Below, piece by piece: positions 52,006 to 55,132 of a DNA stretch of 64,000 bases. The DNA comes from Escherichia coli. GTDB taxonomy: Bacteria; Pseudomonadota; Gammaproteobacteria; Enterobacterales; Enterobacteriaceae. The notes below the pieces were generated by a model. It did not search any database and was not told the origin of the DNA. It saw nothing but the letters and a program-made list of their open reading frames with translations. The stretch lies in the NCBI RefSeq assembly GCF_046105845.1, contig NZ_CP151004.1; one strand, 5' to 3'. Position 1 is the stretch's first letter. Each line of letters starts with the position of its first letter. A program made the position numbers and the translations under genes.

Positions 52006-52020
52006 GTTTGGCATAGCATG

Positions 52021-52042
52021 AAACATAGCAAAGGCTATGTTT
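52021..52042 (+). promoter_or_regulatory. Putative MntR operator in mntH promoter
   Basis: Perfect inverted repeat aaacatagc-aaag-gctatgttt, 13 nt upstream of mntH start. Confidence 0.6.
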
Positions 52043-52045
52043 TAG

Positions 52046-53293
<1,248 letters not shown>

Positions 53294-53321
53294 TTCAACT
53301 GGCGTCGTACCAGGCATCACT

Positions 53322-53410
53322 GGCGGATGCGGCGTAAAACGCCTTATCCGCCCTATGCGTTAAAGAGACGGTTTGTAGGTCTGATAAGACGCGCTAGCGT
53401 CGCATCAGGC
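53322..53410. repeat. BIME: two REP palindromes between mntH and ypeC
   Basis: ggcggatgcggcgtaaaacgccttatccgcc and gtaggtctgataagacgcgctagcgtcgcatcaggc. Confidence 0.85.
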
Positions 53411-53434
53411 ATTGTGCTCCATTGGCGAATGTGT

Positions 53435-53761
53435 TTAATGGCGGTGTCCATGTCCGCGGCCTTTTCCACGATGATCGTCACGATCGCGCCAGCCTTCACG
53501 ATAGCCACGCTCATACGCTTTACGCTTATCCCAGCCACGATGGTAGCCATTATCATGACGCCACCAGCGGTTCTTACGCCATTCATAATTGCGATGCCAG
53601 TAGTCACGGTCGCGCCAGTGACCACCGTCCCAGTAATTACCGTAATGATCGCGATCGCCAATTTGTAATTTGATTGATGGCAGTAGGGTGATTTCACCTG
53701 CGTTTGCCGCAAGCGGGGTAAATGCCATCAGGGCGGCCGCCAGAAACAGTGACCTGAACAT
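53435..53761 (-). CDS. ypeC: Secreted basic repeat protein YpeC (DUF2502)
   Basis: 108 aa [21 protein letters not shown].. signal peptide then periodic H/R/D/W-rich repeats ([29 protein letters not shown]..). Confidence 0.88.
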
Positions 53762-53875
53762 TGTTATTCTCCTTCACGATCGAAGCCGTCAGCGGCCTGT
53801 TAACGCAATATTACGGGGAGGTAAAGCCCCGTATCATCGCCATAACTCTTAAATCATAAAGGAGAGCATTTTTTG

Positions 53876-55132
53876 CTAAACGTTATCGTGGGGGGGCTGT
53901 TGCTTCGGACGATTGACCATCATCATCGGCTTACCTGCTAATAACAGCCATGCCGGAAGCATGACGATACAGAGCAGCGGTAGCAATGTGGTATTGGGTA
54001 CAACGACTGCCGCCATAAAAAGACTTAACCAGCCATCGCGTGTTACCACCAGCACGATGCCGAGAATAGCGCAGGAAACGGTTATTGCCGCTGGAACGGC
54101 GGGAACGTGCTCATGCAGCATCAACCCTAATGCCACCCCGACAAACACTGCCGGGAAGATTCGCCCACCGCGAAAGCCACTGGCGGCAGCAACGACCAGG
54201 GCGGCAAGTTTAATTACCGCCAGCAAAAAGTAATCGCTGGTGCTGAAAGCCTGATTTGCCACCATCTGCTGCATCTCATCCAGCCCTTTAAACAGCGAAA
54301 CTGGTCCACCCATAACCCCCAGAATACCGAGAATAAATCCGCCAATACCCAGCACGAGCACCGGATTTTTCATTTGATGCATCATCGCGTGCAACCGTGG
54401 TAAGCACCATACGGCGACCATCCCTGCTGCGATGGCAATCGCCGCGACAATTGCACCGCTGAGAATATCGGTCATTTCCATTTTTCCGTAATGCGCAATG
54501 GGCAGTGAAAAATGGGGATGGAAAAATAATCCGGTAGTAAGTGCACCAGCTGCTGCCGCCATTAACGGCGCAAAAAGACGATCCCATAGCGGAACTTCAC
54601 TACTACCATTTAAGGTTTGCGAAAATATCAACGCCGCCGCAACAGGTGTGCCAAACAGTGCGCCGATGGTGCCGGCAGAGGCTAAAATAGTCCACTCCAT
54701 TCGGTTGACGCGCGGTAACAGACGAGCGCCAATGGCAACCGCAAGGGCGATATTGACGGTCATGATCGGATGTTCCGGCCCCAGGCTGACGCCGCCAGCA
54801 AGACCGAGAATTAATGCTACGATAAGTCCAGGTAGCGCAGAGGGCGGAACCGGTGCGCCGATCAGCGGTTCACAGGCGGGGTCTGGTCCAGCATGCCCCT
54901 GGCTGAAACGGATAACCAACCCCACCGCAATACCTGTTAGCGTTAATATGGCGATGATCCAGAAAGGTGAATCCTGAGCTATCCCCAGAGTTCCCGGCAG
55001 TCGTTGCCAGAGCAAATTCTGTAATACCGAGGCGATTTTCATCACCACAATCAGAATAAGACTGGACGCAATCCCAATTGCCACGGCGGGGAGCGATAAT
55101 AACAACATGGTTCTGGCTCGCGGATGGAGCAT
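53876..55132 (-). CDS. yfeO: Putative ion-transport membrane protein YfeO (ClC channel-like)
   Basis: 418 aa polytopic membrane protein [32 protein letters not shown].. Confidence 0.9.

What the first reader, a model, noticed from the sequence alone, without database searches (positions are those of the whole stretch)
53435..53761. ypeC encodes a secreted protein built of periodic Trp/His/Arg/Asp repeats
After a signal peptide, the 108-aa product is dominated by short repeats rich in H, R, D, W, Y and G (..[45 protein letters not shown].. ending [10 protein letters not shown]). This is compositionally odd, and the low-complexity DNA produces long spurious ORFs in other frames. With a REP/BIME immediately downstream and mntH nearby, a periplasmic metal-binding role is a tempting but unproven guess.
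Basis: partly seen in the sequence, partly recalled or inferred. Interest (0 to 1): 0.25.

Follow-up and report, generated by a model that had tools for sequence, protein, structure and literature searches.

The report
YpeC: small periplasmic envelope-stress protein
This is the already-annotated E. coli gene ypeC, a small exported protein of unknown function with a very odd Arg/Asp/His/Trp/Tyr/Gly composition. Published data tie it to the Rcs envelope-damage response and the MarA/SoxS regulon rather than to metal supply, so the metal-binding idea stays untested.

Summary
The ORF is real and sits exactly where stated (53435..53761, minus strand, 108 aa). It is E. coli ypeC, Pfam DUF2502, found in about 5,300 of 5,426 complete E. 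coli genomes and under purifying selection (dN/dS 0.08-0.16).

The odd composition, the spurious ORFs in other frames, the downstream REP pair and the mntH neighbour are all confirmed. "Periodic repeats" is not: there is no DNA tandem repeat and no significant internal protein repeat.

The protein has three parts:
- a signal peptide;
- one conserved 45-50-residue aromatic mini-domain (signature P..L.IGDRD..G.YWDG..WRD..WW), predicted confidently by AlphaFold2 and without PDB neighbours;
- a variable, disordered, cationic tail ending in a His/Gly tract.

The metal guess gets little support. ypeC is convergent with mntH, its upstream region has no Fur, MntR or Zur box (mntH's has both Fur and MntR), and relatives elsewhere are not next to metal genes. 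The one point in its favour is a His-rich C-terminus kept across the family.

Published data instead show strong Rcs-linked expression (42-60x induced by a LolCDE inhibitor, 24x down in an rcsB mutant) and a MarA/SoxS-bound marbox, which I located at 53866-53880. The paralogue yaaX is also Rcs-regulated.

Most likely this is an Rcs effector that binds an anionic envelope component. Function remains unproven, and interest is low to moderate.

The parts
53435..53761 (-). ypeC CDS (108 codons plus stop at 53435-53437)
   Evidence: ORF list; RefSeq annotation as ypeC; PF10697 at E=3e-24; dN/dS 0.075-0.16 over codons 1-66 against Klebsiella and Shimwellia
53699..53761 (-). Signal peptide, residues 1-21 ([21 protein letters not shown], cleavage predicted after ANA)
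   Evidence: Read from the sequence. The A-x-A position is nearly invariant in family alignments. No lipobox Cys and no twin-Arg. No dedicated predictor was run.
53552..53698 (-). Conserved DUF2502 mini-domain, residues 22-70 ([13 protein letters not shown], then [24 protein letters not shown], then the hairpin [11 protein letters not shown])
   Evidence: Invariant or nearly invariant positions P28, L32, G35, D38, G41, Y43, W44, D45, G46, W49, W55. 62% identical to paralogue YaaX over res 2-66. AF2 pLDDT 82-90 in the full-length model; 88.1 mean and pTM 0.62 for the domain alone.
53588..53659 (-). 24-residue family module, residues 35-58 ([24 protein letters not shown]); present twice in some relatives
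   Evidence: Module HMM built from 112 instances scores 40.7 bits here and only about 2 bits elsewhere in YpeC. Two-module relatives include P0160, P0170 and P0194 (regex check), plus others seen by eye.
53438..53551 (-). Variable low-complexity cationic tail, residues 71-108, ending in the His/Gly tract [10 protein letters not shown] (53438-53467)
   Evidence: AF2 pLDDT below 50 for res 73-108. Tail pI 10.6 and +6 at pH 7. Tails do not align across the family but keep their composition: 19% R, 17% G, 16% H; at least 3 His in the last 12 residues in 57 of 65 members.
53769..53775 (-). Shine-Dalgarno GAAGGAG, 7 nt before the ATG
   Evidence: Sequence; conserved in Klebsiella and Shimwellia
53796..53826 (-). 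Conserved promoter-proximal block CTTTACCTCCCCGTAATATTGCGTTAACAGG, containing a -10-like TAATAT (53808-53813)
   Evidence: Conserved among E. coli, Klebsiella and Shimwellia. The consensus sigma-70 scan found no full promoter, which fits an activator-dependent promoter. The TSS was not determined here.
53866..53880 (+). marbox GCATTTTTTGCTAAA, 105 bp upstream of the ATG and overlapping the yfeO stop codon
   Evidence: Exact match located. It is the site reported under a MarA ChIP-seq peak with in vitro MarA binding, and is also an E. coli SoxS ChIP-exo target (PMC5684230). The identical site lies under a SoxS peak in Salmonella (PMC10268841). Conserved in Klebsiella and Shimwellia.
53322..53411 (.). 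REP pair (BIME-like) between the mntH and ypeC stop codons: REP at 53322-53352 (+) and REP at 53375-53411 (-). A partial third arm lies at 53299-53317.
   Evidence: Inverted-repeat arms and direct repeat D1; REP-core pattern hits in opposite orientations; sub-threshold Rfam naRNA4 hits

Best explanation
ypeC encodes a small Sec-exported periplasmic protein of the DUF2502 family, made as part of the envelope-damage response.

Shown here or in cited papers:
- The protein consists of a signal peptide, one conserved ~48-residue aromatic, beta-rich mini-domain (signature P..L.IGDRD..G.YWDG..WRD..WW), and a fast-evolving, disordered, strongly cationic Arg/Gly/His/Trp/Tyr tail that ends in a His/Gly tract.
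- The gene is monocistronic. It has a conserved marbox bound by MarA and SoxS.
- Its mRNA rises 42-60-fold when lipoprotein trafficking is blocked (an Rcs-inducing stress) and falls 24-fold when rcsB is disrupted.
- The paralogue yaaX and a Serratia homologue are also Rcs-controlled.

Inferred mechanism: once exported, the cationic and aromatic surface (net about +8 at pH 7 and about +14 at pH 5.5) binds a polyanionic envelope component. Candidates are lipid A or LPS-core phosphates, anionic phospholipid head groups, peptidoglycan, or periplasmic or capsular glycans. Binding would use Arg/Lys/His charge plus Trp/Tyr stacking, and would stabilise or shield the envelope while Rcs reports outer-membrane or peptidoglycan damage. 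The His/Gly end would make binding pH-tunable or metal-tunable. The ligand and the physiological effect are not known.
For: Identity and reality of the gene:
- ORF, annotation and family match.
- Purifying selection, dN/dS 0.075-0.16.
- The 701-bp ypeC region is covered at 80% or more in 5,317 of 5,426 complete E. coli genomes.

Architecture:
- Family alignments.
- YaaX is 62% identical over res 2-66 only.
- The module HMM finds a single copy.
- AF2 is confident for res ~27-70 and gives a disordered tail.
- Tail composition is conserved without positional conservation.
- The mature protein is basic: pI ~10, +7.6 at pH 7, +14 at pH 5.5.

Regulation:
- The marbox is at 53866-53880 and is conserved across genera.
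- MarA ChIP-seq plus in vitro binding, and a SoxS ChIP-exo target (PMC5684230).
- A SoxS peak on the identical site in Salmonella (PMC10268841).
- 42-60x induction by a LolCDE inhibitor, alongside osmB, bdm, wca, ycfJ, spy and ivy-type Rcs genes (PMC5105897).
- 24x lower in an rcsB-disrupted O157:H7 isolate (PMC5343319).
- yaaX is listed in the RcsB regulon (PMC2731931), induced by colicin M together with Rcs genes (PMC3599342) and 8-12x by the LolCDE inhibitor.
- A Serratia DUF2502 promoter was chosen as an Rcs reporter on the basis of its similarity to Rcs-regulated yaaX (PMC8470065).
- Rcs is triggered by lysozyme, beta-lactams, polymyxin B and outer-membrane defects, and it induces protective periplasmic proteins (PMC7917084).
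Against: - No ligand, phenotype or localisation experiment exists in the searched literature.
- I could not identify an RcsB box: the best match to the RcsAB consensus is 8/14. Rcs control could therefore be indirect.
- The rcsB and LolCDE data are transcriptome tables, not targeted tests.
- The AF2 domain has no structural neighbour in the PDB and no Pfam relative beyond DUF2502, so nothing links the fold to a binding activity.
- A conserved His-rich C-terminus fits metal binding at least as well as pH tuning.
Confidence: 0.4

Rival explanations
1. This is the first reader's idea: a periplasmic metal-binding protein acting as a buffer, sink or chaperone. The C-terminal His/Gly tract and the many His and Asp residues would coordinate Zn2+, Ni2+ or Cu2+ in the periplasm, protecting the envelope or handing metal to transporters.
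For: - A His-rich C-terminus is kept across the family despite no positional conservation: at least 3 His in the last 12 residues in 57 of 65 members, with (HG)n runs in Klebsiella and Enterobacter and His runs elsewhere.
- YaaX also ends His-rich.
- yaaX appears with zraP and the cus genes among genes changed in cusS mutants (PMC10920338).
- One UniRef entry names a Pantoea member a zinc ABC substrate-binding protein. This is probably only similarity between His-rich stretches.
Against: - ypeC upstream has no Fur, MntR, Zur, CusR, CueR or NikR-like site above background, while the same scan finds a perfect MntR box and a 15/19 Fur box upstream of mntH.
- ypeC is convergent to mntH with REPs between them.
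- Adjacency to Nramp holds only for the orthologous locus. DUF2502 genes elsewhere have no metal neighbours.
- None of the ypeC papers found is a metal study.
- His/Gly tracts are poor Mn2+ ligands (general coordination chemistry, from my own knowledge), so the mntH link is chemically weak.
- The most conserved part is the aromatic domain, not the His tract.
Confidence: 0.22
2. A periplasmic stress chaperone or 'shield' protein. In this reading the largely disordered, highly charged protein acts ATP-independently to keep envelope proteins soluble during stress, functionally like Spy or CpxP but unrelated in sequence.
For: - It is co-induced with spy and degP under LolCDE inhibition.
- Half of the mature protein is predicted disordered and highly charged.
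- The family has no enzymatic motif and no domain fusions.
Against: - There is no similarity to any chaperone family.
- The conserved part is a compact aromatic domain rather than a client-binding cradle.
- No experimental hint was found.
Confidence: 0.1
3. An inhibitor or decoy against an external attacker of the envelope, for example a muramidase, colicin or other toxin, by analogy with the Rcs-induced lysozyme inhibitors.
For: [quoted passage not shown]
- yaaX is induced by colicin M.
- The protein is a small periplasmic singleton gene.
Against: - No similarity to Ivy, MliC or PliG-type families (Pfam scans).
- A strongly cationic protein is an unlikely binder of cationic lysozyme or cationic peptides.
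- No PADLOC hit.
Confidence: 0.05
4. Not a functional protein: a spurious or decaying ORF created by biased DNA.
For: Four or five of the six reading frames stay open for about 90 codons or more in this region, so an open frame alone proves nothing.
Against: - dN/dS is 0.075-0.16 with saturated or near-saturated dS in the annotated frame.
- There is a conserved SD and signal peptide.
- The Pfam family spans four families of Enterobacterales plus the genera Deefgea and Jeongeupia.
- The mRNA is strongly regulated.
Confidence: 0.01

Closest known systems
YaaX (E. coli b0005), the DUF2502 paralogue
   Same: It has the same layout: signal peptide, the EITL(V/L)PS(V/I)[19 protein letters not shown]..(H/N)YEWR.NRW domain (62% identity over res 2-66), then a low-complexity His-rich tail. 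It is also Rcs-regulated.
   Different: The tail is unrelated in sequence: YaaX has a Pro run and an HHKKAPHDHH...KHHR end, while YpeC has [20 protein letters not shown]...GHGHRH. The locus differs (thrC-yaaX-yaaA). No marbox has been reported or was found for yaaX.
Small Rcs-induced envelope proteins of E. coli (OsmB, Bdm, YcfJ, YpfG, YaiY, Spy, lysozyme inhibitors)
   Same: They are co-regulated: same direction of response, and a similar size of response to several of them, in the LolCDE-inhibitor and rcsB-mutant transcriptomes. They are small exported singletons.
   Different: There is no sequence or predicted-fold relationship. The composition is unique to DUF2502.
His-rich periplasmic metal-handling proteins (e.g. 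ZraP, RcnB, ZinT, and His-rich loops of ZnuA-type binding proteins); comparison from my own knowledge
   Same: They are exported and carry His-rich segments able to coordinate Zn, Ni or Cu.
   Different: No homology. ypeC has no metal-regulator site upstream. The His tract is a terminal appendage to a conserved aromatic domain.
Trp/Arg-rich cationic membrane-active peptides (indolicidin or tritrpticin type); physico-chemical analogy from my own knowledge
   Same: Very high W+R content and net positive charge. This chemistry favours binding at anionic lipid or LPS interfaces.
   Different: YpeC is an endogenous periplasmic protein with a folded domain, many Asp residues and near-balanced charge in the domain (+1). 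It is not a secreted toxin. No homology.

Membership tests
Pfam PF10697 (DUF2502) | HMM score above the curated gathering threshold | tested here: met
   85.4 bits against a cut-off of 27, E=3e-24, residues 23-106. All 65 aligned relatives match only this family.
Pfam PF10697 (DUF2502) | N-terminal signal peptide followed by the P..L.IGDRD..G.YWDG..W core | tested here: met
   Invariant or nearly invariant columns P28, L32, G35, D38, G41, Y43, W44, D45, G46, W49, W55
Rcs (RcsB) regulon | RcsB-dependent expression and induction by Rcs-activating stress | not testable with these tools
   Literature only: 24x down in an rcsB-disrupted O157:H7 isolate (PMC5343319); 42-60x up with a LolCDE inhibitor (PMC5105897); paralogue yaaX listed in the RcsB regulon (PMC2731931)
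Rcs (RcsB) regulon | Recognisable RcsB or RcsAB box near the promoter | tested here: inconclusive
   The best match to TAAGAATATTCCTA is 8/14. There is no motif shared with yaaX upstream. RcsB-only sites are degenerate, so absence is not decisive.
mar/sox/rob regulon | marbox upstream of the gene, bound by MarA or SoxS | tested here: met
   The exact published 15-mer is at 53866-53880, with 12/14 to the degenerate 20-mer, and is conserved in Klebsiella and Shimwellia. Binding data come from the literature. Activation of transcription was not tested here.
Metal-regulated periplasmic metal-binding proteins | Metal-sensing regulator site (Fur, MntR, Zur, CusR, CueR, NikR) or co-transcription with a metal transporter | tested here: not met
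   Background-level matches upstream of ypeC, against a perfect MntR box and a 15/19 Fur box upstream of mntH. ypeC and mntH are convergent.
Metal-regulated periplasmic metal-binding proteins | Metal-coordinating residues conserved | tested here: inconclusive
   The terminal His/Gly tract is conserved in composition (57 of 65 members with at least 3 His in the last 12 residues) but not in position. Binding itself is not testable here.
Tandem-repeat (periodic) proteins | Statistically supported repeated unit with fixed period | tested here: not met
   TRF finds none. Self-alignment is reached by 38 of 500 shuffles. 3-mer recurrence P=0.44. The module HMM finds a single copy.
REP/BIME elements | Imperfect palindromic REP units in alternating orientation in an intergenic region | tested here: met
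   Arms at 53322-53335 and 53339-53352; an opposite-strand REP at 53383-53406 by pattern; naRNA4 (REP-derived) sub-threshold hits
WW domain or choline/cell-wall-binding repeats (lead recalled from memory because of G.YYWDG-like motifs) | Match to the family profile or fold | tested here: not met

The most novel reading that the evidence does not exclude
DUF2502 could be a previously unrecognised type of periplasmic ligand-binding mini-domain: about 48 residues, Trp/Tyr/Arg/Asp-rich, with no PDB neighbour, and sometimes duplicated in tandem. Together with a cationic, His-ended disordered tail, it would act as a direct Rcs effector by coating or bridging an anionic envelope polymer or lipid, in a pH-switchable or metal-switchable way. 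That would give one of the most strongly Rcs-induced y-genes a concrete protective role.
Probability: 0.25. Interest if true: 0.5.

Novelty: already known. Interest (0 to 1): 0.22.

Why it matters
ypeC is among the most strongly induced genes when the outer-membrane lipoprotein pathway is blocked, and it is a conserved MarA/SoxS target. Even so, neither it nor its paralogue yaaX has a known function.

Knowing that the protein is one folded aromatic domain plus a cationic His-ended tail, rather than a periodic repeat protein, makes focused experiments possible: domain against tail, envelope polyanion against metal. The practical lesson for annotation is that this codon composition keeps several frames open. 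It has seeded many frameshifted chimeric 'homologues' and antisense ORF calls in public databases.

Beyond that, this is an ordinary, already catalogued gene of unknown function.

Tried and rejected
- **Periodic repeats.** TRF, direct-repeat search, self-alignment against shuffles, k-mer recurrence, residue autocorrelation and a module HMM all gave no significant periodicity.
- **Second degenerate module in the C-terminal half.** Only echoes of about 2 bits, WRKNRWW and GWRDRD. Rejected as unproven.
- **Link to mntH.** Rejected on orientation, the REP spacer, the regulator-box scan with mntH as positive control, and contexts of non-orthologous family members.
- **RcsB box search and ypeC/yaaX shared upstream motif.** Nothing convincing.
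- **Sigma-70 consensus scan.** No promoter called. Only a conserved TAATAT block was seen by phylogenetic footprint.
- **Remote homology.** The Pfam scan of 65 members, Pfam at E<=10, NCBIfam, PADLOC, a PDB profile search and a profile search of 5.8 G proteins returned only DUF2502 and no domain fusions.
- **Fold comparison.**
  - The afdb50 library was unavailable.
- **WW-domain and choline-binding-repeat resemblance.** This was recalled from memory and is not supported by any tool.
- **Literature.**
  - 'b2390' returned essentially only unrelated hits; its one relevant hit was already in the ypeC list.
  - 'STM2409' returned nothing.
  - No paper on ypeC or yaaX function was found.
- **Overlapping or antisense gene.** Rejected, because synonymous sites in the ypeC frame are free to change (dS 0.9-2.8).

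Full report

The window holds a 108-codon ORF on the minus strand at 53435..53761 with exactly the quoted product. A megablast of 53200-53900 against 5,426 complete E. coli genomes finds the region in 5,424, and 5,317 cover at least 80% of it. RefSeq labels the genes mntH, ypeC ('DUF2502 domain-containing protein YpeC') and yfeO. Pfam PF10697 matches residues 23-106 at E=3e-24; NCBIfam has no model.

- The N-terminus (MFRS, hydrophobic core, ANA|GE) has the form of a Sec/SPase I signal peptide, with no Cys and no twin-Arg. The A at -1 is nearly invariant in the family.
- After a short hydrophobic segment, residues 35-108 consist 99% of D, R, H, W, Y, G, N, K and E (16 R, 12 G, 10 D, 9 H, 8 W, 7 Y).
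- The same frames stay open in Klebsiella, Shimwellia, Pantoea and another orthologue, so openness here carries no information.
- In the annotated frame, dN/dS over codons 1-66 is 0.075-0.16 with dS 0.9-2.8. This shows a real protein and argues against any overlapping coding constraint.
- Two REP units in opposite orientation lie between the mntH and ypeC stop codons, plus a partial third arm. Rfam's REP-derived naRNA4 model hits both below threshold.

The one part that fails is 'periodic repeats'.

- TRF finds nothing.
- The best internal alignment is matched by 38 of 500 shuffles.
- Repeated tripeptides are at shuffle level, and only WRDRD occurs twice.
- Aromatic spacing shows a weak lag-6 excess only (z=2.6).

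**2. What is it?**

A read-every-protein phmmer search of 1.84 billion cluster representatives returns only 85 clusters at E<=1e-3, so the family is small. Named members come from Enterobacteriaceae, Yersiniaceae (Chimaeribacter), Erwiniaceae (Pantoea) and Pectobacteriaceae (Brenneria), plus the genera Deefgea and Jeongeupia.

Alignments show that conservation is concentrated in one block just after the signal peptide: P28, L32, G35, D38, G41, Y43, W44, D45, G46, W49 and W55. The signature is P..L.IGDRD..G.YWDG..WRD..WW.

- E. coli's own paralogue YaaX is 62% identical over residues 2-66 and unrelated afterwards.
- Several relatives carry the 24-residue module twice in tandem. YpeC has one full copy (40.7 bits) and only ~2-bit echoes at WRKNRWW and GWRDRD.
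- The C-terminal halves do not align but keep their composition. Pooled, they are 19% R, 17% G, 16% H, 11% D and 14% W+Y. Median net charge is +5, and 57 of 65 members have at least 3 His in the last 12 residues.
- Klebsiella tails show small tandem duplications, as expected for a slippage-prone disordered region.

AlphaFold2 with a 65-sequence alignment is confident for residues ~27-70 (pLDDT 82-90) and below 50 for residues 73-108. The domain alone gives mean pLDDT 88 and pTM 0.62. Both models share the same elements: short strands, a helix at 52-58 and a hairpin at 59-68.

Nothing else relates to this domain.

- A PDB profile search returns nothing.
- Pfam scans of 65 members, and permissive scans of the separate halves, find only DUF2502.
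- A profile search for distant relatives finds only fragments and no domain fusions.

The mature protein is basic: pI ~10, +7.6 at pH 7 and +14 at pH 5.5. The domain is nearly neutral and the tail strongly cationic.

**3. Context and regulation**

ypeC is monocistronic. mntH converges on it across the REPs, and yfeO ends 115 bp upstream of the ypeC start codon.

A box scan tested the metal link. The region upstream of mntH holds a perfect MntR operator (52021-52042) and a 15/19 Fur box. The region upstream of ypeC scores at background for Fur, MntR, Zur, CusR, CueR/ZntR-like and NikR patterns.

Gene neighbourhoods tell the same story.

- Orthologues in Klebsiella, Shimwellia, Chimaeribacter, Pantoea and an unnamed Logan contig keep the convergent Nramp neighbour. 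In Pantoea a methyltransferase gene lies between them.
- The upstream neighbours vary, as noted independently in PMC5770404.
- DUF2502 genes at other loci (yaaX, Deefgea, Jeongeupia, the two-module Brenneria gene, L008) sit in unrelated neighbourhoods with no metal genes.
- The mntH adjacency is therefore inherited gene order, not a functional coupling.

The upstream region holds three conserved features.

- The 15-mer GCATTTTTTGCTAAA lies at 53866-53880. This is the marbox reported under a MarA ChIP-seq peak with in vitro MarA binding, and the site is shared with the E. coli SoxS ChIP-exo set (PMC5684230). The identical sequence lies under a SoxS peak in Salmonella (PMC10268841). It is conserved in Klebsiella and Shimwellia.
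- A block CTTTACC...CGTAATAT...GTTAACAGG is also conserved.
- So is the Shine-Dalgarno sequence.

Transcriptome papers add the main clue.

- ypeC rises 42-60-fold with a LolCDE inhibitor, among classical Rcs genes (PMC5105897).
- It falls 24-fold in an O157:H7 isolate with disrupted rcsB (PMC5343319).
- It recurs in multi-stress and conjugation-stress gene sets.
- yaaX is listed in the RcsB regulon (PMC2731931). It is induced by colicin M with Rcs genes (PMC3599342) and 8-12x by the LolCDE inhibitor.
- A Serratia DUF2502 promoter was picked as an Rcs reporter because of its similarity to Rcs-regulated yaaX (PMC8470065).

I could not find a convincing RcsB box or a motif shared with yaaX, so direct control is unproven.

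**4. How it most likely works**

Shown: the protein is exported, consists of one folded aromatic domain plus a disordered cationic His-ended tail, and its expression is tied to Rcs and to MarA/SoxS.

Inferred: in the periplasm it binds an anionic envelope constituent through Arg/Lys/His charge and Trp/Tyr stacking. Candidates are LPS or lipid A phosphates, anionic phospholipids, peptidoglycan or acidic glycans. Binding would stabilise or shield the envelope while Rcs signals damage, and His titration or metal coordination at the tail would modulate it.

I give this about 0.4 overall. The identity and regulation part is near certain; the ligand part is roughly 0.3.

Rivals:
- A genuine periplasmic metal binder (0.22), supported only by the conserved His/Gly terminus and a weak yaaX/cusS hint.
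- A disordered stress chaperone (0.1).
- An inhibitor or decoy like the Rcs-induced lysozyme inhibitors (0.05). A cationic protein is an unlikely partner for cationic attackers.
- A spurious ORF (0.01), which the selection data exclude.

**5. Comparison with what is known, and novelty**

The object is the catalogued E. coli gene ypeC (b2390, UniProt P64542 as listed), a full member of DUF2502. Its marbox and its Rcs-linked expression are published.

This analysis adds four things:
- the corrected anatomy (single conserved module, duplicated in some relatives, plus a compositionally conserved tail);
- the negative result on periodicity;
- the negative regulatory and contextual evidence for a link to mntH;
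- the observation that the predicted mini-fold has no PDB neighbour.

None of this establishes a function, so the finding is 'already known' as an entity with an open function. Interest is low to moderate (0.22). It is a good candidate for a focused study of Rcs effectors, but nothing here is surprising to a specialist.

Noticed in passing
window 52018..52074 (+): An 18-codon ORF ([18 protein letters not shown]) is annotated as a hypothetical protein (WP_418134935.1) in RefSeq strain PCN033. It overlaps the perfect MntR operator (52021-52042) and the mntH start codon (52055). It could be a leader peptide or an annotation artefact.
   Followed up: partly
protein database hits P0001-P0201; locus L010:4797-5300 (-): About half of the 201 database 'homologues' of YpeC fail a simple check for an intact DUF2502 core and tail. 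Most have Thr/Ile/Val/Ala-rich tails, i.e. frameshifted or alternate-frame chimeras, mostly from raw assemblies; the rest are fragments. In Deefgea, a 167-aa antisense ORF is called over the DUF2502 gene. The codon composition of this family systematically misleads gene callers.
   Followed up: partly
protein P0213 (Pantoea stewartii): A DUF2502 protein carries the UniRef name 'Zinc ABC transporter substrate-binding protein'. This is probably annotation transfer through a His-rich stretch, not evidence of function.
   Followed up: no
window 53866..53880 and 53876..53878: The ypeC marbox overlaps the stop codon of the upstream gene yfeO. The regulatory site therefore lies partly inside yfeO's coding end.
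   Followed up: no
window 53299..53317: A third, partial REP arm (CTGGCGTCGTACCAGGCAT, 84% identical to 53394-53412) lies directly after the mntH stop codon. The intergenic BIME may therefore once have had three units.
   Followed up: no
proteins P0091, P0064 (Klebsiella): Klebsiella YpeC tails differ by small tandem duplications (GWYK x2; GPGGRG x2) and by (HG)n length. This suggests slippage-driven length variation of the tail within a genus.
   Followed up: no
L012:6001-6429 (Brenneria), P0160, P0170, P0194, P0198: Some family members contain the 24-residue GDRD..G.YWDG..WRD..WW module twice, about 30 residues apart. Brenneria carries such a two-module gene at a locus unrelated to ypeC, next to an FKBP-type isomerase gene.
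   Followed up: partly
window 53814..53830 (-): A short inverted repeat GGGG-CTTTACCT-CCCC lies just upstream of the -10-like TAATAT in the ypeC promoter region. The loop (CTTTACC) is conserved across genera, but the stem is not conserved in Shimwellia.
   Followed up: no
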